Position numbers and translations under genes: made by a program. DNA of 64,000 nucleotides from positions 186,001 to 250,000 of the forward strand of contig JAMDHS010000023.1 of NCBI GenBank assembly GCA_029717555.1, given 5' to 3'. Of the stretch, positions 18,524-33,979 are shown piece after piece. Source of the stretch: Peribolospora baueri. Taxonomy: Eukaryota. Every line of letters begins with the position of its first letter. Positions within the stretch are counted from its first letter, which is position 1. Under the pieces are notes generated by a model, which saw only the letters and a program-made list of their open reading frames with translations, made no database searches and was not told the origin of the DNA.

Positions 18524-19821
18524 GATGGGCGGCGAGTGTGGGGCGACTAGGTGGGAGTGGTGGGAGGAGAAGAGGCGAAGGGAAGGGAAGGCGCTGGCGT
18601 GGCTTTATACGTATCCCCGGCGAGCCGTGCGTGCCTCAAGCGCAAGCCAGTCCAGTCGTCTTTCTTGTTTTCCTTCTTTTCTTGTCTCTCTCCCTCCTCA
18701 CCTTCTTCCTTCCCCCTGCCCGCCTCACCCGCCCCACTCCTGTTTCTGGCCCAGGCGAGGCAATCAAGGCAGAACGCGTCGATCGCTGCGGCATGCTGCG
18801 GCATGTGCTGCCTGCACCCCGCAGACGGGTTTATTACTCGTTAGCCAACGCCACGGCCGAGCCCAGCGACAGCCAGTCAGACTAACTAGATAGTCGACAT
18901 GGAGAGGAGAGAAAGAGGGAGTGGGGAATGGGGATGGGAGTGGGAGTGGGGAGAAGGGAAAAGGGAGACAGGAGACAGACGAGAGCGTACTGGTCATCCT
19001 CGCACTTAATAACGGCGTTAGCAAACGCCTGCACTCGGCGCCCACGTTCTTGCTTGCGCTTGCACGAATGAAGGAGATGGCCAAACAGGGTAGGGGGGGT
19101 GTGTGTGTTGGTGGTGCATATTCATGTCTCGATGGCAAGGGCCACCCACACACGCTATCCCCGATGGCGGGGACCCCGGTCGCCTACGTACTATGAACGA
19201 AACGACACGGCGCTGCTGGAGCGGTGAACGAAAGACGCACCCTTGCGCACGCCCACCTCATCACGCGCCCTCGGCCCTTTGCTCCCGCCGAGGAGGAGGA
19301 GGAGGTCGACGGGGGCCGGTCGTACGAGAGAGAGGCGCCACAGTGCAGCAGCAGTCAGGTCTCGGCCGTCGTTTACTTTGGCGGCGCGATGGGTATAGCT
19401 CGCTAGCTACAAGTGGGCGAGGAGGGGAGAGGAGGGGACGGAACGGGATAGGAGAGGCACGTCGTCGTCGTCGTAGGCGTCGTGTGCGCATCGCATCGAA
19501 CGCTGTCGTCAGCCGTCAGGGCGGGCGAGGTATTTGGTTGTGCTGTCCAAGGCGCTGGCGGTGCGCACCGACTCGGACTCGGACAGGCGATCCTTTCTCT
19601 TCTACGACGACGGAACGGGGTCGGGAAGAGACAGCAAGATGGCACAAGCATTCCTAATCCGTATCCCTGCCCGCCCCCGCTGCTGATCGCCGTCATCGCG
19701 CGCCAGTCTCAGTCCGTGCACGGTCCATCTCGCCCCATCGTCGACGGCGACGGCGACGGTGACGGTGACGACGACAACGACAAGACGACGAGGACGACAA
19801 CATCGTCCAGCGACCCTCGCC

Positions 19822-22800
19822 ATGTCGCCCCTCTCCTCCCCTTTCTTACGACTCCCCCTTCACCTTCTCCTCCTCCTCTCCCCCGCCCACGCTCTCACCT
19901 GCTCCAACTACGGCTACCCCAACACCACTGCTCAAGCCGCCTGCGTCTGTCCCTCCCCCTTCCTCCCACCCTCCTGCCTCTCCCCCTCCTGCTCCGGCAA
20001 CTTCCTCCTCCCCACCTCCCTCCGCCAGCCCCTCCCCGCCCTCGCCAATGTCACCGACGCCAACTTTGGTTCGCACACCGGCGGCGGAGGCGGTAATGCG
20101 TCCTACGTTGGTGCCGGGTGCGGGTGCGACGCCGGCTGGACGGGCGAGGGCTGTGGCGTGTGCACAACTGACGCCGCTTGCGATGCCGCCTTTGCCCGCG
20201 TCACCGCCGCCACGGGCAATCAGGACGCCCTGACCGGCGCGAGCACGACCGCCGACGCCGTGTGCAATGCCCAGCCGTGGACCAGGTCGGCGGGCATGAT
20301 CAGCTGTGACGTCCAAGTGATTTTTCTTCCATCGTCTTTCCCTCCGCCCTCTCCGTTCGTTTGTTCATCCTTCTCCCTTTTACTCCCTCCGCACAGAATC
20401 CAACCCTTCAAGCGCTCTTCCCCCTCAACTCGGTCCTCACCATCCAAAAGTTCGTTAACCCTTCCAAGTCCCTATTCCCTCCCTCGTCCGCCTCTTCCTC
20501 TTTCTCTCCCCCCTCATCCAATGCCACCGCCTTTGGCACCGCCGCCACGATGCTCGCCCAGCTCTGGTACGCCGGCGTGGAGCAGTTCTACTGTCATGCA
20601 GATCAGTGCGTCCAGTCCAACAAGACCGCCGCTGGAGGCGGCGGCCAAGGACAGCCGGTCGATTGGGTGTGCCAGGATTTGCAATGTCAGTGCGTCCCTG
20701 GCTCCGCCTTTTGTGGCGGCGTGCCGGTGAGTGCCCGTTTCTTCGGGCGTAGAAGTACACCGAATCGACGTCTCACTCGTCCTCCTCCCGCCTCAGCTCA
20801 AATCGATAGAGGGCACCATTTCCCAGCTCTCCGGCACGGTCACCATCACCTGCACGACTGCCTCCTGCACTTTCAACCAGGCCCTCCTCGCTTCCTTCTT
20901 CGGCTCCGGTGGCCTCTCCCTTACCGGCTGTTCCTTTGGCGAGTGCGTCAGTCGCGCCGTCTTGAACGAAGTTGACTCTTCCAGCGCCGGAGGCACTGGC
21001 GGCGGCGGTTCGGGTTCGAGTCTGAGCGCCGGCGTCATCGCCGCCCTCGCCGTCATCGGAGCTGCCGCGCTCGTCCTCCTTGCCCTCATCGCTTGGGCCA
21101 TCGTCGCGCAACGAAAAGCGAGAAGGCGCAGCCTCCCCCACGGTCTAGCCCTAGGCGTCGTGGAAGAAAAGTCGGCTCCAGGTCGTCCTTCCGAGGCGGG
21201 AAGAGGCGTGGCTTGGCATGCCGTATCCTACGACGTTCCCTCCCCTCGTCCCTCCATCTCCACCTGGTCGCGCTCCTTGGCCGCTGCCGCTCTTCCGATC
21301 CCCCGCCGACGACGACAACACCTCGTCGGAGGAGGCGATGGAGAGCGACCGGAAGAAGCGGCGGCAGCGGCGACGACAGAGCCAGGCAAGACTGTGCTAT
21401 TGAACAGCGAGGGAAGCGTCGCGCCGGGACACATGCTTGCGATCCTTGGCCCGAGCGGCGCGGGGAAGAGTACCCTCGTCGATATCCTCGCTGGAAAGGC
21501 TAAGCGCGGACACGTTCGCGGTCGCGTCTCCTTCTCCGGCGGCGGCGGCGGCGGCAGCGTAACGGGAACGGGGCGACCTCGGGTCGGCTTCGTCAGCCAG
21601 TCCGACGTCCTCCCACCCACCCTAACCCCACGCGAATACCTCCTCTTCTCCGCCCACCTTCGTCTCCCGCACGCCGAATCCCTACCACAATCTTCGATCC
21701 GTACCCACGTCTTTGAAGTCCTCCGCCAGCTCGGACTTACAGATGTTGCGGATGTGAGGATGGGCAATGAGGAGAGGAGGGGGTTGAGTGGTGGAGAGAA
21801 AAGGAGGGTTAGCATTGCGCTCGAGGTATTGACGAGGCCGGAGGTGCTCATTCTCGATGAGCCTACCTCGGGTAAGTCCGCCCCCATCGTGGCCCGCCCG
21901 CTTGCTGGCCGGGCTTGACCTGTCTTGGTAGCGCTCACATCCATCGCTTTCCTTCGCTCGTCAGGCCTTGACTCCGTCTCTGCAGCCAACGTCATCTCCG
22001 TCCTCCAGAACCTCGCCAGCGATCCAGTCTATCCCACCACCGTCGTCTGTTCCATCCATCAGCCAAGGTAAGCAGCATCCCGCCTTTTCCTTTTTCTTTG
22101 TTTTTCCAGCTCTGAACCGCTCGACGACACCCCCGCAGCTCCAAGATCTATCGCGCCTTCACCCACGTCCTCCTCCTCTCCCTCGGCCGACAGCTTTACT
22201 TTGGTCCCGGACGCGACGCGCCTGCCGAACACTTTGCTCGAAGGGGCGTCCCTTGTCCCGTCGGATACAACGTTGCGGATCACCTTCTCGAAATCGCTAG
22301 CGATCCTTCCCGGTCTGTCCTCGTCGACGCGCGGAGCGGTGGGGGGAGCAAGCAAGATCGGAAGGAGATCGTCGGAGCCGTCGACGACGGCGCGTCAGCG
22401 TCAGCGTCAGGAGGAATGAAGGCGAATGGCGACGCCAAGGACACGTCTGCGTCTGCAGAGATGGAAAGCGTCCTCCCCGTCCTGTCTCCCGGTGAACCTT
22501 TCTCGAGACGCACACGCGGCCAGGTGAACGACGCCCATGCGACGACGACGACAACGGTCGAGGCGGAGAGCCCGACGCCGAAGGAAAAGACGACGTGTCG
22601 GACGACGTTCTTGACCCAGTTCGAGGTCATCAGCGGCAGGGAATGGCTCAATCTCAAGCGGTGAGCCACGCCCCTTGCCTACCGGATCTTCCCGCCGTCC
22701 GTCACCGTCTACCGTTCCTGACCGTCCGCTGATATACTCTCTTCCGCGACCCCCCCCTCGTTTCATCTCCTTCGACAGAGACAAGTCGCTTTTCCTCCTA

Positions 22801-24096
22801 CACCTCGGTGTCGCGCTCATCCTCGGCGTCTTCTGCGGCGGACTCTACTTCCACGTCAACCTCACCATCGCCGGTTTTCAGTCTCGCGTCGGATCGCTCT
22901 TCTTCATCGGCGCCCTCATCGCCTTTACCAGCTTGTCGAGCTTGAGCAACCTCGTGGAGAGGAAGGAGCTGTTCGTGAGGGAGAGGGCGGCCGGGTATTA
23001 CCGGTGAGTCGCTGCCCCTCTTCCACACGCCGCCGTGCCGCACGTCTCGTCGAGCTGATACCATTCCTGCCCCTCTCGTCCTCCCTCCTTCTTCTAGCCC
23101 CGGCGCCTGGCTCCTCTCCACGATCCTCTTCGACGTCATCCCCCTACGCTTGATTCCCACCATCGCCTGTGGCACGATCATCTACTGGATGGTCGGCCTC
23201 GCCCCGCACCCGGCCCAGTTCTTCAAATACCTCTTCGTCCTCGCCCTCTTCAACATTGCCTCCGTCCTTTTCAACCTCGTCCTCGCCGCCTCCATCCGTA
23301 ACGGCGGTGCGGCCATCCTTTTGGGCAGCATCGTCACGCTATTTGAGATGGCCTATGGTGAGCTAGCTGATCCGAGACGGAGGGAGGGGAGGGGAGCGAT
23401 GGGACACTTGTCGACGTCGTGTTCGTGCCGCTCATACCCACTTCCGTCGTCCTATGTCGCTTTCGGGAAAAACCCCTTATTTTTTTTTTCCTTCGCAGCC
23501 GGCTTCTTCGTCAACCTGGGACGAATACCGCCAGTACTCCGATGGCTTCAATATCTCTCCTTGCTCAGTGCGTCTCCGACCCCACCCGACGTTTTTTCTC
23601 TCTTTTTCTTGTCGCATCCCGCAACGCCCTATGACTCGCTCACGTCACGTCGCGTCGCTTCGATTTTCACCCCATCGCGCAGAGTACGCGCTCGAAGCGC
23701 TCTCCGTCAACGAGGTCATGTCGGGCCTCCAGATCGAGGACGTGATCGCAGGCGTGCCCGTCAACATCTCCGCCGTGACGATCATGAACCTCTTGTTCGG
23801 GTTCGGAGAGAAGAATTACTGGAGGTGAGCGCGCGTCGCGTCGCATCGCGTCGCGGCGAGGCGAGGCCAGCGAAAACGCGCCTCGACATTGTTCCGATGC
23901 CGGGCCCAACTGACGGCATCCCCTTCGCTTTTCTTCCCGTCTCGCCACTCACCCTCGCCCTTCACGCGGCCCGACGTTTTTGTCTCATTCTCGTTCGCCT
24001 TCGCACAGAGACGTGGTCATCTTTGTCGCTTTCATCGCCGGTTTCTCCGTCATCCTCGTCAGCGTCGTTGGCTGGAAGCTTAGAGAGCGGAGATAG
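19822..24096 (+). CDS. ADP1: ADP1-type ABCG half transporter with Cys-rich EGF-like extracellular N-terminus
   Basis: Signal peptide, EGF-like CGCDAGWTGEGC, TM helix, Walker A GPSGAGKST, signature LSGGEKRRV, Walker B ILDEPTSGLDS, SIHQP, ABC2 membrane domain, stop TAG at 24094-24096. Confidence 0.9.
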
Positions 24097-24922
24097 GTCT
24101 TTCGCCCGGGCGCTCAGGCTTATTTCCCCGATGCTCCCTTTCCCTCACTTTCTATTTCTTCCCATTTCTTTGTCCTTCCCCCCTCTCCCTTTTCTTCTGG
24201 TCTTCTATTGGGAATACCCCTTATGGCGGTCGGTTCTTGTGGCAACGTATTTCAAGACACGAGCTTTGAAAAAAGACCGAGACGGCTTCAGGTGGTCGTC
24301 GGAAAGATGATGAAGAGTGCGCGTGGACAGCCGTGGGGCGGTCGTCAGGGTCATCTGTCCGGCGACACTCCCGTCGTGATGATGATGCGCTTTTAAGCCA
24401 CACTCCACAATCGCATCGCATCGCATCGCTCAAGCTTGCTGCTCCCGGAAGATCGCTCCTTTGAGCGAACCAGTCTGGCACAGAGTCTGGAGCTGGGCGG
24501 TCAGTCCGGCGCCCGTATTGATGCCTCCCGGCAGGACCATCGCGCCCGCAGGCGGCAGGGCGCCCACAGTCGGGGCGGCCGCCATGCCGACCAGGCTGGG
24601 AGCGGGGCGGAGCTGACGAGAGGGACGGCCAGGCTGATGAGAGCGAGGGTACAGAAGGAAGACGACTGGCAGGTGGGAACGTTCGTTTGCCGTCCTGATC
24701 CCGCACCGGGTGGCGGGGAGGCCGGGGGGGGGTGGGGAGCTGGCCGGAAAAGGGGCTATAGAGCGACGAGTCGGCGCGCACGAGAGACAGAACAGACTCG
24801 CCTTCATATTTCCTCTAGACCGCAACGATGGTGTATGTGGAAAATACGTCGGCGTGCGTGTTGCAGACGCAGGTTTGGAGACGAGCCAAGCCGTCTTCCT
24901 AAGCGCCGAGGGTTACGTGAGC

Positions 24923-26329
24923 ATGACCAAGAACCGAAAAGCCTCAGGCAGAGCGAGGTCGGCGACTCCCATCGCTCAAAAGAGTCAGAACCACCTGACG
25001 AACGCGCAGATGAGGATGCGGGGCCCGACGGCGACGGCGATGACCACCACCACCACCACACCATCTCACGTCGCTCCTGGCGAACGGCCCTACGCCGCCA
25101 GCTCGAGCTCCCCACCGAGCACGGCGGGCCCGCCAACGCCCCCCACTCCGCTCTCCAGACCGACGTCCGTGCGCTTTTCGGCCGACGGCTGTCCCTCGCC
25201 GCATCACGAACATCAGCCCCAACACGGGTCTCGCGAGCACCATCAGATGCCCCTCGGCGCCACCATACGCAGGAAGGAAGGCCACCGCAACTTGAAGCAA
25301 CCCCGTCCGCGCCCTCGTCTGCGGCAAGCCGAGTGCGAAAAAGCGACCGAGTCCGATTCCACGTCCGACTCTGAGATGTCTGCCGGCTTCCATTCCGCCG
25401 GCTCCCATCTATCTGAAGACGAAAGCGCCTCCTCCGCCGGGCCTTGCTCTTCCCCATCCTCCTCTACCTCCTCTTTTCTCTCTTTTACACCCATGCTTCA
25501 TGTCGAGCCGATCAATAGGAGAGACGGCAGAGGAGATGAGCGCAAACAGTGGGTTGTGCAAGGAGGAGAGCTGGAGAAAGCGCAGATGGAAGCAAGAGGT
25601 GTGGATGAGGAGGCCGTGAAGCATGAGATGAGGCATAGAAGGAGGACTGGTGGTGGTGACGGCGACGGCAGTGGCGGTACGGCTGCTAGCGATCAGAAAC
25701 ATCAGGCTGTTATGGATGGAGTAACAGAGAAGGAGAGACAATTTGAGGTTGGAGGGATGTTCCCAAAAGGGCGAGAGCGGGATGAAGGACCGGCAGACAA
25801 GCACAAGCACCTTGGTCCACCAGGCCTAGACGCACGAGACCTCATCCGGCTCCACAGTGAGCGAACGTGGCCTCGCTCAGCTGGAGCCAATGCTCAGCCA
25901 GTGCCACCTTGCTCCTCTGACCTCAAGGAGGCGGCATGGTTAGGAAAGGCGGCACTGGGAAGCTACGCGGATACCAGTACTGCTGAGGAAGACCGGAATG
26001 AGGAAGGAAGACATCCGTCGACGGAGGAACGAGCCGAACACGCAGAAGCACTTGCATCAGCACAAGCTTCGGCTCTAGCGTCCAGCGAGCGTTTCCACCT
26101 TGGCCGGGAGCGATCGCTGTTGAACGAGGTGAGGGCGCTGCGACAGAGGCTGTCTGTGAGCATCGAGATCGGCGAGCACGAGAGGAGGATGGTGGAGGCC
26201 GGGAGGAAGTACGAGATCGCTTTGAAGGAGCTTGAGGACCAGGTGAGAGGATTACGAGAGGGGAGAAAAGCTGTGAAGCGCAGGGGTTGGCGAAGGTTGT
26301 TGCATTTGCCCAAGCACATTCATCATTAG
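24923..26329 (+). CDS. Hypothetical intronless protein, disordered with C-terminal coiled coil
   Basis: Long open frame (first ATG 24923) filling an otherwise empty interval. No recognised domain. Confidence 0.5.
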   Translation: MTKNRKASGRARSATPIAQKSQNHLTNAQMRMRGPTATAMTTTTTTPSHVAPGERPYAASSSSPPSTAGPPTPPTPLSRPTSVRFSADGCPSPHHEHQPQHGSREHHQMPLGATIRRKEGHRNLKQPRPRPRLRQAECEKATESDSTSDSEMSAGFHSAGSHLSEDESASSAGPCSSPSSSTSSFLSFTPMLHVEPINRRDGRGDERKQWVVQGGELEKAQMEARGVDEEAVKHEMRHRRRTGGGDGDGSGGTAASDQKHQAVMDGVTEKERQFEVGGMFPKGRERDEGPADKHKHLGPPGLDARDLIRLHSERTWPRSAGANAQPVPPCSSDLKEAAWLGKAALGSYADTSTAEEDRNEEGRHPSTEERAEHAEALASAQASALASSERFHLGRERSLLNEVRALRQRLSVSIEIGEHERRMVEAGRKYEIALKELEDQVRGLREGRKAVKRRGWRRLLHLPKHIHH

Positions 26330-26506
26330 CATCATGTATTGCTAAGATACGCCAGTCAAACTGAGAAGACAGTGCCAGATCGGCACGTCTTGGCGTCCAA
26401 GCTAAGGCAAAGATTTATTCAATTGATTCTTGGAAATTCACTTTGGGTTTATTTGTCCAACGGACATACACACTGGGGAATACTGGCGAACAAAGCGAAT
26501 ACACGC

Positions 26507-27597
26507 CTAAAGGCCCTCCTTCAACCTCTTCTCGGCTTCCTTGAAGTTGATCACTTGCCTATGTTACACGAATGAAAGGTGACAGCCGGTAAGCGGATCG
26601 ACGAACGACGGCAGAGGGAACATGACGTGCACAGCGGCAGCACGTGACGCCGATACAGTCTTCACGCTCACCAGATTGCCTTAAAGTACTCGGCCTTGAC
26701 ATTCTGGTACTGGAGGTAGTAAGCGTGCTCCCAAGCGTCGATGCCGATAAGGGGCTTGTGGGCTGGCATGAAGAAAAGTTCAAACAGGGAAGGGGACGTC
26801 AGCGAGATTGTCATGCGTCGTCAGACTGCCGAGCTCTCGGGATGATCTACTGACACAGCAAAGGGTCCTGGTTCGCAGTGGTGACGATATCGAGCTTCTT
26901 GGTGATGGGGTGAATACCGAGCCAGCCCCATCCAGAGCCCTGGATGCCAGCGAGGGCGGCATTGAACTTGGTCTTAAGCTGGTCGAGGCCACCGAAGTCG
27001 CGATCGATGGCATCCTTGAGCGCACCGTCGGAGAGCTCGCCACCACCGGCCTTGGGCGGGGCCAGGTTGGTCCAGAAAAGAGAGTGGTTTACGTGGCCTG
27101 GTGTGATGTGTAGGCAGGCATACCACTGATAAGTGGGGCTCACGGGATAGTGTGGGCCAACGGTGAGCGGGACGGGGAAGTTGCTTATAGTTTAACTCAC
27201 CACCGCCGTTGAAGACGAGAAGCCGCTGTGTCTCAAGCTGGGTCTTGACGTCACCCTTGGCGGTCGCCTCGTGCAGGGTTTCCTCAGCAGCATTGAGACC
27301 GTTAACGTAGGCCTGGTGGTGCTTGTTGTGGTGGAGCTCCATGATCTGGCCGGAGATGGCCGGCTCGAGCGCCTTTGTAGACATGAGCGTAAAGGGTTAG
27401 GCGTCGACTCAGCGTCAAGACATGGTCCGGTTCGGCCATTCATCGTCGACATTCATTCCAGTTACACTTACACCGTAGTCGTACGGCAGATCAGGCAGTG
27501 TGTGCTTGCTCCTCGTGGCCATCGTGCCGGCAGGCCGGACCGCAGAGGCGCGGAGGGCGGACGAGGCGAGAGGGCGAGCGGCGACGCGGAAGGACAT
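26507..27597 (-). CDS. SOD2: Mitochondrial manganese superoxide dismutase
   Basis: Presequence [87 protein letters not shown], end RLKEGL*. Confidence 0.97.
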
Positions 27598-28371
27598 GGT
27601 GGGATTGTGAGCAGGAATCAGGAGTGGTGAAAGTGGCCGTCGTGAAGATGATCGCGATCGTTCAATCCCGGAACGATGTTCGATGATGACGCGCAGATGA
27701 TCGGCGCCGCAGTCGAGTAAGTGCACAAGTATGTAAGCAACCGTAGGGTTAGGGTCGGGCCCTTGCCGCAGCCCCAAGCACGTCCACCGCCATCGTTCGT
27801 TCGGCGGCCCCATTAGGGCGCCTTCCCGTCATCCCAACGCTCGTTCCCTTTGGCCCGTTCCCGATTGCATCTTCGGTCAGCGGGTTGCCAAGTGAAATTG
27901 GCAATCCTCATTACCCGCGTAGGAACCTTGAAACGAGGGAGGGACGCGTGCGTGGCTTACTTAAGGGATGGCAAGTCCTGTTACCTCCTTTACCTCCTGT
28001 AGGCAGGCGCCGCGGCGGTGAGGGGGCGTCCCAGGCCGCAAGCGGACAACCTCGTCGTCGTCGTCTTAGCCGCCCTCCGTGACCAACGCACCTAGGGGCC
28101 AATGAATAGCAAAGGATAGGGATGAGAGCGCGGAGAATACCCAGCCCACACGGGAGTGGCTCTGGTCCTGCGGCGTCGGGTTCTGGTGGCGATCCGGAAC
28201 AACGCCGCCTTGCGGCTGTTGGCTTCGTTAACATGACCTCGGCCGCACTTTTCGGCGTCAAGACGACTCGACGCTTGCTGCACACTGTCGCACAACCTAG
28301 GCGCCACCATGGTGCGGTCCGAGTTGTCGGTTCTGGACGAGGTACCGAAGCAGGTCGACCGCGCTCGTCGA

Positions 28372-29125
28372 GTATAAATTTATGATAAGGATTTCGTTCG
28401 TTATCGGACTTAACCTTACATTTTATAACACGAACTGACGACAGCCATGCAACACCTGTGAAAAAAAAACCTATTACACTTATTTTTAAAACTAGCACAA
28501 TAGGCAAACAAACTACTCCGACAAGGGTATTCATTTAACTATTTTCATACAAGGAAAGGTAAGGTTCTACGTGGATCATCGTATTAAATAACATGCTTCA
28601 CTTCGGGTTTCTGGTGCCCTCTAATCTTTTTGTTTTCAGCACTGATGCTATACTCACAAGATGCTACAAGCGTTAGCATCTTATCAGATATAATAATTGC
28701 TACCAAATGATAGTGTAGATCGTTTACGGCTTGGAATACTAGGGTATCTAATCCTTGTCTCTCCCCAAGCTTTCGTATCTTAGTGTCAATCGTTAATTAG
28801 AAACGTGCCTTCGCAATTAGTATTCCACTAAGTATAATCGGATTTCATCCCTACTCTTAGCATTATCCTTTCCTCTGTTCGATTCTAGTTATTAATGTTA
28901 AAATAACCACCTACATGCCCTTTACACCTATTAAATACGTCTAACGTTGGCCCACCCGTATTACCGCTTCTGCTGGCACGATGGTTAGATTGGACTTATA
29001 GTAAGGAAAGTCATTATACTCCTTACTCTATCCACAAGAGTTATCCACTTGTAGAATTCTAGTTGACTAGGTCATTCTTTCGAACATTGCCCAATATTCT
29101 AAACTGTTGCGTCTTAAAATAGACC
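28372..29125 (-). other. NUMT: fragment of mitochondrial small-subunit rRNA (rns), roughly E. coli 16S positions 335-1115
   Basis: Abrupt AT-rich island. Colinear reverse-complemented SSU signatures: ACGAACTGACGACAGCCATGCAACACCTG (28430), GGAATACTAGGGTATCTAATCC (28733), GTATTACCGCTTCTGCTGGCAC (28958), CAATATTCTAAACTGTTGC (~29092). Both rRNA ends are missing. Confidence 0.88.
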
Positions 29126-29187
29126 ATCCTTGGGCTCAACCTCGATTGACGCTGTCGACTTATACGACTTGTTTGCACGCTACACAG

Positions 29188-29280
29188 ATCGGAAACGCAG
29201 CCCCGATCCCACTCGCCATGGTCATAGGAAGAGAGCTGAAAGAGGCTATGATAAAGAGGACTACTGAGGTATCTATATAA
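29188..29280 (+). pseudogene. Orphan terminal exon of a C5 cytosine DNA methyltransferase (motif X), DNMT1-like remnant
   Basis: After a branch-like TTGAC (~29146) and CAG (29185-29187), the frame reads IGNAAPIPLAMVIGRELKEAMIKRTTEVSI*. This matches C5-MTase motif X (Q[IV]GNAVPxxLAxxIG) and the GREL-x-EA tail recalled from basidiomycete DNMT1-like proteins. No other MTase motifs found in the window. Confidence 0.65.
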
Positions 29281-29413
29281 GTCGTTTGTTTCAAAGTCGG
29301 AACGAGAAAGCACATTGTTGTACTACACTCGTACACGACAGGTGAATAAATTCGATTCGACCCAGAGGAGCGCTCCTTCTTGATTTGAAATCAGTTCGTG
29401 GATCTCCCTCGAA

Positions 29414-31402
29414 TCACTCATCCACCTTGACAGCGAGCACAGCAGAGTGTTGCCCGCCCGTAGCGCATCTCACCACCTTATACCCCTGCATCTGCTTGCT
29501 AGTCACCCTCGTCGGGGTCCTCACTTCTTCCTCGTCGCCTATGCCTAACTGGCACTGGTTGCCGTAACCCCAGCCGTAAAGGCAGCCGTCCTCGGCAACT
29601 GCAAGGTTGTGCCGCGTGCCGCTGGCCAGATGCACGATCTTCGTCGGCTTGCCGTCGGCTTCTGCCGGGAAAGGTATGTGCACCGGCTCAGGGATGTACT
29701 CGTCCGGAGGAGGACCCTTCGTCGGCGGAAGATCATCCGACGATACGACGCCCGCAAAGGCCCCGCCCATGCCATCCACCTCCATGGCATCGGCGCCACC
29801 GCTAGCCGACGCCTTTTCGCGCTTCTGGGCCTGTTTGGCCTCCCACTGCTTCATCTCCTCCTCCAACTCCTCCGCCCTGCGCTTCTCCCACTTTTCGCGC
29901 TCTTCCGCCACCTCGATCATCGCAGGATGGTCGTCGTCCAGACCGAGCTCGAAGCCGTCGCAGCGCCCGCAGCCCCAGACTTCGCCGTTGTCGAGCAAGA
30001 AGAGCGTGTGGTGCTCGCCGCCCGAGATCTGCTTCACTCGAGCTCCGCCATGCTTCTCCGGGCTTAGCGCTTCCACGCGCGCCGGCACAGGGATGATGTC
30101 CTGAGCGCCTCCATGCGACATCGGCACGCCCGTTTGATGGAGCGAGTTGAGGCCCCAGCTATAGACCTCTCCCTTCTTGTCGACCGCAAAAGAGTGGTAG
30201 CTGCCGGATCCCAACATCACGATATCTTTGAGAGCCAAGCGTTCCGGTGTCAGACCATTGATCTTGCGCCTCTCGATGATGCGCCTTCCGAGCTGGTTCT
30301 GCTGACCGTTGCCCCACGTGTAGACGTGGCCCGTCGTCGTCAGAGCCAGAACGTGATCGGCGCCACACGCGATCTGCACGAAGCTGTGCTTGTTGAGCTC
30401 GGGCAGGGAAACTGGAGAGAACTGCTTCTTCTCCGATCCAGTGCGGCCGTCGAAGCCAAGCAATCCGTCGTTGGACTAGGAGAAAAAAAGGGGCCGTCGC
30501 GCGCATTCAGCGACGGTGAACGTAGAGATGCCGAGACTTCTATCGCTCACCATACTCACCCTGAAGCTACCCCACACTCGCACCTGGCCCTGATCTCCGA
30601 TTGCCACGCTCACGCTGTCTCCAGCAGCAACCTGAACGGCACGGAAAAGCTCGACTTCGCCCTCCTTGCCGCCCTCAGGCGGCGGTCCGGGTAGCACGCC
30701 GCGACCGGCAGGGTCGAGGCCCTCGACTCGCATCGGCTCCGTCTCCAGCACTTCCGCCTCAATGGACGAATCTCGAGTGGTGGAGCGACCGAGAGAGGCG
30801 TTATCGTTGATACCCCACGACCATATCTGAAAGGCGTCGAGGCAACATGAATAAAAACACCGGGTAAACACGGGGACGCGGTCGAGTTGAAGGAAAGGGC
30901 GTCGGGAAAAGAAACCCGCGAATGGTTCACTCACCTGTCCATCCGAATCCACCGCCAATGTATGCATACCGCCAGCGGCGAGCGTCTCCAATCCGCCCTG
31001 GCCGGAAATGCCCTCGTCCACTTTGGATTTCCAGCCGATATGCAAACGCGGACGCTTGATCTCTCCCAGCTCTCCGGTGCCCAGTCCGTGTTGGCCCATA
31101 TCGCCATTTCCGAACACGAACAGGTATCGTGGGAGGATCACGGTCGCGTCCTTCGCGCTGCGGACGGCCGCTTCCGGGACCGGAAGCGCGTTAAGCCCTG
31201 GACGAGGTGCTCTCGAAAGGGCACTCGCCCGACCGCGACGAGACGGCGACGCGGACATCGTCCTCGTCTTTTTCCCTGCAGGCTCGGGCGTCTTGCTACG
31301 TCCGCGCCCGTTGGCGGTAGAGGCCCCCTTGCTGGGGCCAGCAACCGGCGACTTGCCCCGCTTCCGGGTCGACCTCTGAGCCATGTGCTCGTCCACGTCC
31401 AT
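29414..31402 (-). CDS. RCC1: RCC1 Ran guanine-nucleotide exchange factor (Srm1/Prp20/Pim1-like)
   Basis: RCC1 repeats FVFGNGDMGQHGLG, AAGGMHTLA, WSWGINDNASLGR, ACGADHVLAL, WGNGQQNQLGRRIIERRK, SGGEHHTL, ATGGQHS. Basic N-terminal tail. Start may instead be 31384. Confidence 0.93.
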
Positions 31403-31704
31403 ATTGATTCGAGCCCGGGTAGCTGACTGCAAGGGAGAAACGGCAATGAGACACGCAGGATAGAGGGCGAAAAGGAGAGCGAGCAGCACCGAGGTGGAGC
31501 GTTGGTGGATGGTGGTCGTTGGTTAAACTCGCAAAAAGTTTTCGATGTTGACGTCCCGCCGTGTTTGGCCCGATCTTGCCTTCTTGCCGCAGTCGACGCG
31601 GCTACCTTGGCCCACGTGGACGACACCGACTTCGAAAGCCCCATCCCCCACTCTGACCTCACCTCACAGACATCTTCAAGCAGCAGCATTGAGACAGACG
31701 TCTG

Positions 31705-33979
31705 ATGCTCTTCAATGGCACCGGAGGGGGCTCCAGCGCCGGGGATCCTCCTTCCCAGGCGCATCCTGATGCAACCTCTTCTTCCGCCTCCGCCACAGCC
31801 CCCCGGCTCGAGCTGGGAGCGACCATGCTCGACGGCGACGAGAGCCTCGACGGAGACGTTACCGTCGCGCTGGCCAGACTCAACTATAACATCGAGAATG
31901 TGACGAAACAGATGAGGGAGCAGGTGAATTCTGCGTTTTGTTACTTGCGTCCAAAGAGACGTTGCGCGACTTACCTTCTCTCAACCTTTTGTGCCTCGTT
32001 CGATCGCCGACTGCACAGGTAACCACCCATGCGCCGGCACTGCTCGCCCACGCTTCCAGCATATCCAATATGGAAGGCGGGCTCAAGGACGTGCGTAATG
32101 GTCTTGGCGAATTAGAGGGTGGAGTGGAGCGGTACGTGCAACCTTTATATTGTCTATGTACGACGGTGTTGAAGCCCTCAAGTTTCGCTCGTGTTGATGC
32201 CTCCTGTGTCACATTTTGTGACCATTACCCTTCTTCTCAAGCCTTCGCGCAAAGGTACGGACTCCGTACCAACATTTGCGCCGCTTGCACGCCCGACTCT
32301 CTCGCTTGCACGCTGCCTCCGATTTGCTACGTCGGGCTGGGCGGTTCGCTCAGCTGGCTCGTAGGTTGGACGCCCAGATGGACGTTGTGGTCGCAACAGA
32401 AGCGGGAGGCGGGGATACGAACCCAGCCCCGGGGACGATTGAACAAGCGAAGGGCAAGGGAAAGAGCAAGCTGGATTTGACCGAACCAGAGAGGGAGGAG
32501 GCTCTTGGCAGGGAGCTCGCCAAGGCGGCTTTAACGATCTCTGAACTCGGTGAGCGAGCCCTTCCATCTCAAGGACTCCTCTCTACCAAGACGACCTTTA
32601 TTGACGCAGGCATACTTGTATTGGCTTCCTGTCGATCTCTGCACGCTTTCTTTGCTCTCTTATAGACTCATTACTCTCGCAATCCCCGGTTTCTAGCCCA
32701 ACTGCATCTCCTTCCACGGGCGCGAAACCGCCCGGTAAAGGCAATGCTGATCCTCCGGGACTTCCCTCCCCACCGCTCACGGCACTTTCCTTTGTGAGGA
32801 CATATCTGTCGGTTCTAGAGGAGGCAAGGAGGGGGGTCAACGAGCGGATGGAGGATATGATTGTTAGAGGGCTTAAAGATTTGGTGAGTGGAAGCCTCCC
32901 GGCGCGCACCCTTCTCTAAATCCCCTCTGTTCTTGCTCTCATGAGCTGAAGCTCGGCTCGCGCTTTTTTTCTCTTTCAAACGCCCTCACGACCATCTCTC
33001 ATAGTCTCCAACGCTTCTCTCGAGCGCTCTCCAAATCGCGAATAACCTTGGTTCCCTACCCGACCTCGTAAGAGATCTGCTCTCTGACCTGACCGAAGTC
33101 GTCCGTGATCGCATCCGCGCGGCATTCGACATGACGAGTTTGGCTAAGGAAGTTGGTGGTAAAGGTGCGCCTTATGCCCTTCTCCGTGTGCACTCTGCCG
33201 CTCAATTCACAGGGCACGTTGCTGATCAGCTGACGTCCGTCCCTTTTGCCGTTCCACGATCAGAACCTATCGCTCCATCGGCGGCGAACGCGTACATCGG
33301 CTACAAGATCCGCTCACGCAACGAGCCGGCAAACGTGCTCGCGCCACAGTGGGCCGCAGCTTTGTGGAAGCGTCTTGACAATCTAATCGTGGGGGAAATG
33401 GCAGGTGTTTGTATGAAGGTGGGTCTTCGTTTGCTCTGCTCAATTGACTCGGTAGCATGCATTGGTGCTGGCGAAATGGATTCGTGCTCACCTCATGATG
33501 CCATCATTGACGGGTGGCCAGGTGTACGCGCTGGAGAAAGTGCTCCGACTGAAACAAGACCAGGGGACACAGCTTTCGTTCCTTGAAGAGGCGATGAAGG
33601 TGCTAGAGAACAAGCCGAGCGTCATCTTCTGGAAGACGTTTGCTCAGGCTTTCGAGTCGCACTCGAAGGAAGCCGTAAAATGTGAGTCGCTCTTCCATTT
33701 CCTTACTCCGGTTCACCACGGCGCTCGTCCATCTTCTATCAAGAGGAGGCTCGCCCGCGCGCGCGCTCAATGACATCTGATCTGATCCTCCACTGGATAC
33801 GGGCATACGAAAAACAAGCGTCAGCGTTCGTCCAACAAATGCTCACCACCAACTACGCAAAGCTCGTCCGACTCTTCCAAGACTTTTTCTCCAAGGTCGC
33901 CGTGACGACGGATACGGACCAGCAATCTCCTGAGACGGTCCTTGTGCTGCGCTCGATAGCACACTTTGCGAGCGCCTAG
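31705..33979 (+). CDS. COG5: Conserved oligomeric Golgi complex subunit 5, apparently 3'-truncated (possible pseudogene)
   Basis: Eight in-frame exons: DVTVALARLNYNIENVTKQ|VTTHAPALL...RLHAASDLLRRAGRF...LLSSALQIANNLG...VYALEKVLRLK...YAKLVRLFQDFFSK...SPETVLVLRSIAHFASA*. Start codon uncertain. Confidence 0.8.

What the first reader, a model, noticed from the sequence alone, without database searches (positions are those of the whole stretch)
27880..29280. DNA methyltransferase gene apparently deleted and patched with mitochondrial rDNA
Seen: about 60 nt right of the NUMT is a splice acceptor and a 30-residue exon, IGNAAPIPLAMVIGRELKEAM...*. Known: C5 cytosine MTases of the DNMT1 class end in motif X (QIGNAVP...), and such genes span several kb with motifs I (FxGxG) and IV (GPPCQ). 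Seen: only ~1.7 kb separates the SOD2 start from this exon, the NUMT fills about 0.75 kb of it, and no other motifs were found. Inference: a double-strand break removed most of a DNMT1-like gene and was repaired with mtDNA. That would capture a methyltransferase loss together with its mechanism, in a phylum where DNMT presence is patchy.
Basis: partly seen in the sequence, partly recalled or inferred. Interest (0 to 1): 0.88.

Follow-up and report, generated by a model that had tools for sequence, protein, structure and literature searches.

The report
DNMT1 gene relic beside mitochondrial DNA insert
A fungal intergenic region holds a real piece of mitochondrial ribosomal DNA and, next to it, the last 30 codons of a lost DNA methyltransferase gene, but a close relative without the mitochondrial piece also lacks the gene, so the insertion did not delete it.

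Summary
A 749-nt copy of mitochondrial small-subunit rDNA (28376-29124, minus strand) sits between an Mn-superoxide dismutase gene and an RCC1/pim1 gene. Sixty nt to its right, a 30-codon frame (29188-29280) matches the extreme C-terminus (motif X and tail) of DNMT1/MET1 methyltransferases: 17 of 27 residues, tblastn E 2-3e-5, hhalign probability 94%. None of 300 simulated windows reached that score.

The NUMT is not an assembly chimera. Nuclear-depth contigs of two public runs run 30-35 nt into it, and it differs at 18 sites from the high-depth mitochondrial contig.

In a relative about 2% diverged (organism B), one contig bridges the locus. The NUMT is absent there and only 281 other nucleotides stand in its place, so B has no room for a DNMT gene either. 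The gene body was therefore most likely lost before the two lineages split. The mtDNA capture, probably end-joining repair of a break, replaced at most 281 nt.

No other DNMT motif was found in the 64-kb window. Both features are ordinary kinds: a pseudogene relic and a lineage-specific NUMT. The whole genome, closer relatives and B's 281 nt could not be examined.

The parts
26668..27597 (-). Mn/Fe superoxide dismutase gene (SOD2-like), several exons. The start codon's A is at 27597.
   Evidence: Pfam Sod_Fe_N E 6.3e-20 and Sod_Fe_C E 2.8e-14 and 7.3e-13 on three exon frames. The start codon was read from the sequence.
27598..28370 (.). GC-rich intergenic flank (SOD2 upstream region), shared with organism B. 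B lacks 27992-28067 (76 nt) and has 4 other letters there.
   Evidence: Contig pieces and joints of X3/X4. No Pfam family of note, no MET1 tblastn hit better than E 4, and no SSU match when searched alone.
28371..28375 (.). Five junction nucleotides matched neither by B's contig (ends at 28370) nor by the mitochondrial contig (begins at 28376). Possibly filler.
   Evidence: tables 5 and 8. The filler reading is inference.
28376..29124 (-). NUMT: 749 nt of mitochondrial small-subunit rDNA, roughly Rfam model positions 335 to 1120-1160, inverted relative to the window's + strand.
   Evidence: Rfam. Matches high-depth contigs at 97.6% (X1, 4156x, 18 of 749 letters differ; X2, 1818x). Nuclear-depth contigs end at 28405 (X1) and begin at 29095 (X1, X2). 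Absent in organism B. AT-rich.
29125..29127 (.). Three junction nucleotides matched neither by the mitochondrial contig (ends at 29124) nor by B's contig (resumes at 29128).
   Evidence: tables 5, 7 and 8.
29128..29187 (+). 60-nt spacer shared with organism B. It ends in 'cag', which may be a former splice acceptor or simply where the homology stops.
   Evidence: Sequence. B's contig resumes at 29128. No DNMT likeness upstream of Q at 29185.
29188..29280 (+). Relic of the last 30 codons plus the stop of a DNMT1/MET1-type cytosine-5 methyltransferase gene (motif X and C-terminal tail). The homology starts at the Q codon 29185-29187.
   Evidence: PDB phmmer: DNMT1 chains at E 0.005-1.2, best stretch 18.4 bits. 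tblastn 31 of 31 MET1, best E 2-3e-5. Simulations 0 of 300. hhalign probability 94.2%, 26 columns, 65% identity, at the template's C-terminal end. Atlas 0.95 with PF00145 clusters. Pfam itself gives no hit.
29414..31522 (-). RCC1/pim1-like gene, at least two large exons. Its stop codon at 29414-29416 lies 133 nt from the relic's stop, and the two are convergent.
   Evidence: 911 homologues at E<=1e-20, named RCC1/BLIP-II, pim1 or regulator of chromosome condensation. Pfam RCC1 families. ORF coordinates.

Best explanation
The SOD2-RCC1 intergenic region of a basidiomycete, apparently of the Ustilaginomycotina, carries two separate scars.

(1) The older scar is shared by lineages A and B. A DNMT1/MET1-type methyltransferase gene once lay here, convergent with RCC1 and probably divergent from SOD2. 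All of it was deleted except its last 30 codons. These may have been spared because they lie within about 130 nt of the RCC1 stop codon, in that gene's 3' end zone. That last point is inference.

(2) The younger scar is in lineage A only. A chromosome break in the remaining spacer was repaired by end joining that captured a 749-nt fragment of mitochondrial SSU rDNA in inverted orientation. It replaced 281 nt still present in B and left 5 and 3 unassigned nucleotides at the junctions, with no target-site duplication.

Neither part is functional now. The NUMT is a partial rRNA copy, and the relic lacks every catalytic motif.

Shown: the NUMT, both junctions, its absence in B, and the DNMT1-like C-terminal frame. 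Inferred: the order of events, end joining as the mechanism, and the reason the last exon survived.
For: NUMT and junctions. X1 has a nuclear-depth (87x) contig over 25000-28405. X1 and X2 have contigs over 29095-32000 (87x and 115x). These reach 35 and 30 nt into the insert. They stop where 31-letter words become shared with the 4156x/1818x mitochondrial contig; that explanation of the stops is inference.

The insert is not the mitochondrial genome itself: 18 substitutions and 6 gap letters in 749 nt separate it from A's mitochondrial contig.

In B, one contig per run (X3 70x, X4 97x) bridges the locus with 281 other letters in place of 28371-29127. Its flanks differ from the window by 65 letters in 2992 nt and 39-40 in 2862 nt.

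The NUMT is not young. Within 28693-29124 it differs from both mitochondrial types at 5 shared sites plus 1 indel.

No direct repeat flanks the insert.

DNMT relic: (the only non-repetitive hit among 1.84 billion representatives is a MET1 C-terminal fragment, E 1.9e-5 over two stretches).

No further DNMT piece in the window: the next-best tblastn hit is E 0.1, and Pfam finds none.

Taxon: the best named RCC1 relatives are Ceraceosorus guamensis 59%, Sympodiomycopsis kandeliae 58% and Tilletiaria anomala 54%.

Literature, passages read: NUMTs enter at double-strand breaks by non-homologous end joining (PMC2820518). Most basidiomycetes carry 1-3 DNMT1 genes, while Ustilago maydis, Malassezia globosa and Wallemia sebi have none (PMC7862722).
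Against: The relic is only 26-30 residues. Pfam PF00145 does not detect it even at E<=10. A word-index search of 5.8 billion proteins found nothing. In the full library search, no single-stretch match reached E<=0.001. The same peptide also gives weak ankyrin-repeat (DARPin) alignments in the PDB, 11.5 bits per stretch at best.

All MET1 queries were plant proteins, because no fungal DNMT1 could be obtained.

No contig in A spans the whole NUMT. The left junction is seen in X1 only, since X2's contig stops at 28265. X2, with 0 differences, may be the sample the window was assembled from.

B's 281 nt were not readable. They could hold more DNMT remains, or be B's own insertion, and there is no outgroup to set the polarity.

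In 80 metagenome loci with RCC1 relatives at 53% identity or less, 32 of them with at least 3 kb downstream, none has SOD2 or a DNMT beside RCC1. This gives no independent support that a DNMT ever lay at this position.
Confidence: 0.7

Rival explanations
1. One reading: a single break removed most of an intact DNMT1-like gene in this lineage and was patched with mtDNA, so the gene loss and the NUMT are one event.
For: The NUMT lies only 60 nt from the DNMT1-like terminal frame. The insert did come with a loss of resident sequence: 281 nt present in B are missing in A.
Against: Organism B has no NUMT and only 281 nt at the site, so it also lacks the gene body. The model then needs an independent deletion of the same gene in B within the same interval. 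No other DNMT remains lie left of the NUMT.
Confidence: 0.05
2. The DNMT likeness is chance: a short open frame in intergenic DNA, or in the RCC1 3' UTR antisense, that happens to resemble motif X. No methyltransferase gene was ever here.
For: Only 26-30 residues match. Pfam is silent. No single-stretch hit is significant against 1.84 billion proteins. Ankyrin-like alignments also appear. There is no synteny support.
Against: tblastn E 2-3e-5 for a named family, and 0 of 300 simulated windows reach the score. hhalign probability is 94%. The match sits at the very C-terminus of MET1, with a stop 4 codons after the end of the best query. The language-model search independently points to PF00145 clusters at 0.95, a score that shuffled sequences reach about once in 100. 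Every DNMT1 alignment scores higher per stretch than the ankyrin ones.
Confidence: 0.15
3. The NUMT is ancestral to A and B, and B later lost it in a deletion that left or added 281 nt.
For: The NUMT has 5 substitutions and 1 indel of its own in 432 nt. At all 7 sites where the two mitochondrial types differ, it carries B's state, so it looks about as old as the A/B split.
Against: It requires B to have removed the insert at, or very near, its exact boundaries and to hold 281 unrelated nt there. A replacement in A explains the shared boundaries with one event, because the alignment breakpoints are set by A's insert.
Confidence: 0.1
4. The mtDNA block is an assembly chimera or mitochondrial contamination of the scaffold.
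For: No laid contig of organism A spans the whole insert.
Against: Nuclear-depth contigs cross both junctions: left in X1, right in X1 and X2. The block differs from the organism's mitochondrial contig at 18 sites and 3 indels.
Confidence: 0.02

Closest known systems
NUMT formation by capture of mtDNA at chromosomal double-strand breaks through non-homologous end joining. Review PMC2820518, passages read; it cites Ricchetti et al. 1999 for yeast, which I did not read.
   Same: A fragment of bulk mtDNA in intergenic nuclear DNA, with no target-site duplication and a few unassigned nucleotides at each junction. It is polymorphic between close lineages and decays after insertion.
   Different: Here the capture goes with the loss of 281 resident nt. 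[quoted passage not shown]
DNMT1/MET1 maintenance cytosine-5 DNA methyltransferases (Pfam PF00145 with BAH and RFD domains)
   Same: Motif X and the C-terminal tail: 17 of 27 identical to a plant MET1, ending within 4 codons of that protein's end. PDB DNMT1 chains are the best single-stretch matches.
   Different: Every other part is absent: the catalytic motifs I, IV, VI and VIII, the target-recognition region, and the BAH/RFD domains. It cannot be an enzyme.
Lineage-wide absence of DNMT1-family genes in Ustilago maydis, Malassezia globosa and Wallemia sebi (review PMC7862722, passages read)
   Same: A basidiomycete whose nearest named relatives are Ustilaginomycotina, with a DNMT1-type gene missing at this locus.
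   Different: Those cases are presence/absence calls. Here a physical remnant of the gene is still visible. Whether this genome keeps another DNMT1 or DNMT5 copy is unknown, because no genome is held.
Recent inactivation of the dim2 methyltransferase in Zymoseptoria tritici (PMC8016269; only the search listing and abstract were seen)
   Same: A fungal DNA methyltransferase lost recently enough that remains are visible and close relatives differ.
   Different: There the cause was gene amplification followed by RIP. Here it is a deletion that left the last exon. In addition, both lineages examined here already lack the gene.

Membership tests
DNMT1/MET1-class C5 cytosine methyltransferase (PF00145) | Motif X (Q-I/V-G-N-A-V-P-P-P-L-A type) near the C-terminus | tested here: met
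   QIGNAAPIPLA at 29185-29217. tblastn 31 of 31 MET1 queries, best E 2-3e-5. hhalign probability 94.2%. PDB DNMT1 chains.
DNMT1/MET1-class C5 cytosine methyltransferase (PF00145) | Catalytic motifs I (FxGxG), IV (PCQ), VI (ENV) and VIII (QxRxR); the motif names are recalled | tested here: not met
   No tblastn hit better than E 4 in 27600-29300, and none better than E 0.1 anywhere in the 64-kb window. Pfam is silent on 36 frames of the locus.
DNMT1/MET1-class C5 cytosine methyltransferase (PF00145) | Reaches Pfam's gathering score for DNA_methylase | tested here: not met
   0 families at E<=10 for the 69-aa and 31-aa frames.
DNMT1/MET1-class C5 cytosine methyltransferase (PF00145) | N-terminal RFD and BAH domains | tested here: not met
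   Full-length MET1 queries, which carry PF12047, PF01426 and PF00145, give no significant N-terminal hits in the window.
NUMT (nuclear copy of mitochondrial DNA) | Homology to the organism's own mitochondrial genome | tested here: met
   97.6% identity over 749 nt to the contig at about 48-fold nuclear depth in X1, and the same for X2 over 519 nt. Rfam SSU rRNA match.
NUMT (nuclear copy of mitochondrial DNA) | Physically joined to nuclear DNA on both sides | tested here: met
   Nuclear-depth contigs end at 28405 (X1) and begin at 29095 (X1, X2), 35 and 30 nt inside the insert. No single contig or long read spans it, so this is word-level evidence only.
NUMT (nuclear copy of mitochondrial DNA) | An empty or alternative site exists in a relative | tested here: met
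   X3 and X4: joint 28370->29128 with 281 other letters, on one contig each.
Ankyrin repeat (considered because of the DARPin hits) | Tandem 33-residue repeats recognised by Pfam Ank models | tested here: not met
   A single stretch only, 11.5 bits per stretch at best in the PDB. No Pfam Ank family at E<=10.

The most novel reading that the evidence does not exclude
The 30-codon frame may be the last visible trace of a fairly recent, lineage-specific loss of DNMT1 inside the Exobasidiomycete part of the Ustilaginomycotina. It would be kept because it overlaps the 3' end zone of RCC1. The 281 nt that organism B retains, and that the NUMT replaced in A, would then be further pseudogene remains. 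Together these would let the loss of maintenance methylation in this subphylum be dated and its steps reconstructed.

Separately, at all 7 of 7 sites where A's and B's mitochondrial rDNA differ, the NUMT carries B's state. It would then be a fossil of the ancestral mitotype, and A's present mitochondrion either evolves unusually fast or was replaced.
Probability: 0.25. Interest if true: 0.45.

Novelty: new member of a known kind. Interest (0 to 1): 0.3.

Why it matters
As it stands, it matters little. NUMTs captured at repaired breaks, and short pseudogene relics, are both well known, and the link between them, which made the finding exciting, does not hold.

It has modest value as a marker. 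A physical remnant of a DNMT1-type gene in a subphylum where surveyed species lack the family could help date when and how maintenance methylation was lost, once whole genomes of this clade are compared.

The NUMT is a clean, dated example of mtDNA capture with a 281-nt replacement in a basidiomycete. It also preserves an older mitochondrial rDNA state.

Tried and rejected
Whole genome. None is held for this window, so tBLASTn for other DNMT genes was impossible.

Earlier notes of the scan. None for this genome or for this peptide.

Word-index search of 5.8 billion proteins with the 44-aa frame, longer proteins only. 1 candidate, none scored.

Pfam on the frame and on 36 frames of the locus. 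No DNA_methylase; only two chance-level DUF hits at E 0.16 and 0.028.

Library-wide phmmer. 2 hits. One, P0001, is a serine/threonine-rich repeat protein matched in 4 stretches and was rejected as a low-complexity artefact. The other, P0002, is a duplicated MET1 C-terminal fragment whose E-value is inflated by its two copies.

Ankyrin reading of the peptide. Rejected: weaker per stretch than DNMT1 and no Pfam support.

Idea that the frame is the reverse complement of the 5' end of the mitochondrial rRNA. Rfam's alignment ran on to 29214-29222. Rejected: the flank alone gives no match at E<=10, the true mitochondrial contig diverges after 29124, and B has this flank without the NUMT. The left flank behaves the same way.

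An 18-nt direct repeat between the NUMT (28733-28750) and the end of the frame (29258-29275), 15 of 18 matching. Taken as chance.

A motif VI-VIII-like stretch at 18981-19121 (+), hit by 30 of 31 MET1 queries at best E 0.1. Rejected: at 28.5 bits it lies within what simulated windows give (median best 25.8 bits; 8 of 300 reach 30 or more), and Pfam is silent.

Synteny test in metagenome contigs. 80 RCC1 loci at 53% identity or less, of which 32 have at least 3 kb downstream. 0 have SOD2, MET1 or the peptide at E<=1e-3, while the RCC1 positive control hits 80 of 80. A tblastx look for other shared neighbours gave only short pieces with linked E-values. The test is uninformative, because even the SOD2-RCC1 adjacency is not kept at that distance.

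Expression. No RNA holder was listed.

Not reached.

Full report
WHAT IS THERE

The stretch lies between two minus-strand genes. On the left is an Mn/Fe superoxide dismutase (Pfam Sod_Fe_N and Sod_Fe_C on three exon frames), with the A of its start codon at 27597. On the right is an RCC1/pim1-type gene with its stop codon at 29414-29416.

The best named relatives of the RCC1 protein are Ceraceosorus guamensis (59%), Sympodiomycopsis kandeliae (58%) and Tilletiaria anomala (54%). The organism is therefore a basidiomycete, most likely an exobasidiomycete-like member of the Ustilaginomycotina, with no close annotated relative.

THE NUMT

Rfam finds bacterial-type SSU rRNA on the minus strand, and GC falls from about 0.6 to 0.30-0.44.

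Four public runs hold the region. I laid them on 25000-32000.

- Runs X1 and X2 (organism A) are the window's own strain or nearly so, with 1 and 0 differences in the left flank.
- Their nuclear-depth contigs (87x and 110-115x) cover 25000-28405 (X1), 25000-28265 (X2) and 29095-32000 (both).
- A contig at 4156x (X1) or 1818x (X2) covers 28376-29124 (X1) or 28606-29124 (X2), then continues with sequence unlike the window.

The mitochondrial homology is therefore 28376-29124. The nuclear contigs reach 35 and 30 nt into it and stop where 31-letter words become shared with the abundant mitochondrial sequence. That account of the stops is my inference.

The insert differs from A's mitochondrial contig by 18 substitutions and 6 gap letters, so it is not mitochondrial contamination of the assembly.

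Rfam's alignment runs further, to 28230 and to 29214-29222. Each flank searched alone gives no SSU match at E<=10, so those extensions are artefacts. No direct repeat flanks the insert.

THE RELATIVE

Runs X3 and X4 (organism B) each give one nuclear-depth contig over the whole locus. It is about 2% diverged from the window: 65 letters in 2992 nt on the left, 39-40 in 2862 nt on the right.

The contig shows two joints:
- 27991->28068, with 76 nt absent and 4 other letters in their place.
- 28370->29128, 'skips 757, 281 letters between'.

B thus has no NUMT, and 281 nt of other sequence stand in its place.

THE METHYLTRANSFERASE-LIKE FRAME

Evidence that it is DNMT1-derived:
- phmmer against PDB sequences gives DNMT1 chains at E 0.005-1.2. 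The best stretch scores 18.4 bits and lies at residues 881-904 of a 913-residue chain.
- A language-model search gives scores of 0.95, 0.95 and 0.94. Its two best clusters carry PF00145 in 18% and 47% of members, and 20 of 30 hits belong to that set.
- phmmer against 1.84 billion representatives gives two hits at E<=0.001. One is a repeat protein that I reject. The other is a 114-aa plant MET1 C-terminal fragment present twice, E 1.9e-5.
- With 31 full-length plant MET1 proteins, tblastn hits 29185-29265 with all 31, best E 2-3e-5 at 40 bits and 17 of 27 identities. The alignment reaches the last residue of the query, and the window's stop follows 4 codons later.
- In 300 simulated windows the best score of that query reached 40 bits in none and 35 bits in one.
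- hhalign of the 69-aa frame against a 23-sequence MET1 alignment gives probability 94.2% over 26 columns at the template's end.

Evidence against:
- Pfam does not see it.
- A word-index search found nothing.
- Single-stretch matches are not significant library-wide.
- Ankyrin-repeat proteins align weakly.
- I had no fungal DNMT1 to compare.

I put the relic at about 0.8-0.85.

IS ANY MORE OF THE GENE PRESENT?

No. Between the SOD2 start and the frame, no tblastn hit is better than E 4 and no frame has a DNA_methylase match.

In the whole window the next-best MET1 hit is E 0.1, at 18981-19121. That is within chance expectation.

WHAT HAPPENED

B lacks the NUMT yet has only about 1.0 kb between the SOD2 start and the frame. 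The body of the DNMT gene was therefore already missing in the common ancestor of A and B, unless it was lost twice in the same interval.

The mtDNA capture is a second event. It replaced 281 nt and left 5 and 3 unassigned nucleotides at the junctions. This fits end-joining repair of a break with mtDNA as filler, which is the accepted route for NUMTs (PMC2820518, passages). That review says deletions at such sites are rare and very small in primates, so 281 nt is on the large side.

The insert is not recent. Within 28693-29124 it differs from both mitochondrial types at 5 shared sites plus one indel. A's mitochondrial type has 7 further differences, at which the NUMT keeps B's state.

The relic's stop lies 133 nt from the convergent RCC1 stop. 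A deletion reaching further might have damaged RCC1's 3' end, which may be why this piece survived. That is inference.

CONTEXT AND VERDICT

A review (PMC7862722, passages) states that most basidiomycetes have 1-3 DNMT1 genes plus DNMT5, and that Ustilago maydis, Malassezia globosa and Wallemia sebi have no DNMT1-family gene. A visible remnant in this subphylum is a small addition to that picture.

The relic and the NUMT are each probably real. The proposed single event, 'deleted and patched', is contradicted by organism B.

Both features belong to known kinds, and interest is modest.

Noticed in passing
window 28693-29124: The NUMT is closer to organism B's mitochondrial rDNA (5 substitutions and 1 indel) than to the mitochondrial rDNA of its own organism A (12 substitutions and the same indel). 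At all 7 sites where the two mitochondrial types differ, the NUMT has B's state. Either A's mitochondrial rDNA evolves faster or A's mitochondrion is not the direct descendant of the NUMT's source.
   Followed up: partly
window 27992-28067: Organism B lacks a 76-nt GC-rich segment of the SOD2 upstream region and has 4 other letters in its place. This is an indel between the two lineages.
   Followed up: no
window 18981-19121 (+): A short frame resembles MET1 motifs VI-VIII. It is hit by 30 of 31 queries, best E 0.1 at 28.5 bits, and lies in a G-rich non-coding-looking stretch upstream of an ABC-transporter-like gene. It is within chance expectation, and Pfam is silent.
   Followed up: yes
window 28625-28667: Runs X1 and X2 each hold a short contig (94 and 85 nt, depth 131x and 150x, near nuclear depth) that matches this part of the NUMT with 2-3 differences. 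It then continues with unrelated sequence to the left. It may come from another nuclear copy of this mitochondrial segment elsewhere in the genome.
   Followed up: no
window 29258-29275 vs 28733-28750: The last codons of the DNMT-like frame share 15 of 18 nt with a conserved stretch of the rRNA inside the NUMT, in the same orientation. I took this as chance, because the flank alone has no rRNA match.
   Followed up: partly
window 28230-28375 and 29125-29222: Rfam's SSU alignment over-extends by up to about 150 nt into nuclear flanks on both sides of a truncated rRNA copy. NUMT limits taken from covariance-model hits alone would be wrong here.
   Followed up: yes
window 21400-24310 (+): Frames with Walker A-like and ABC-signature-like motifs, visible in the tblastn alignments, suggest an ABC transporter gene upstream of the locus. 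The motif names are recalled. This was not examined further.
   Followed up: no
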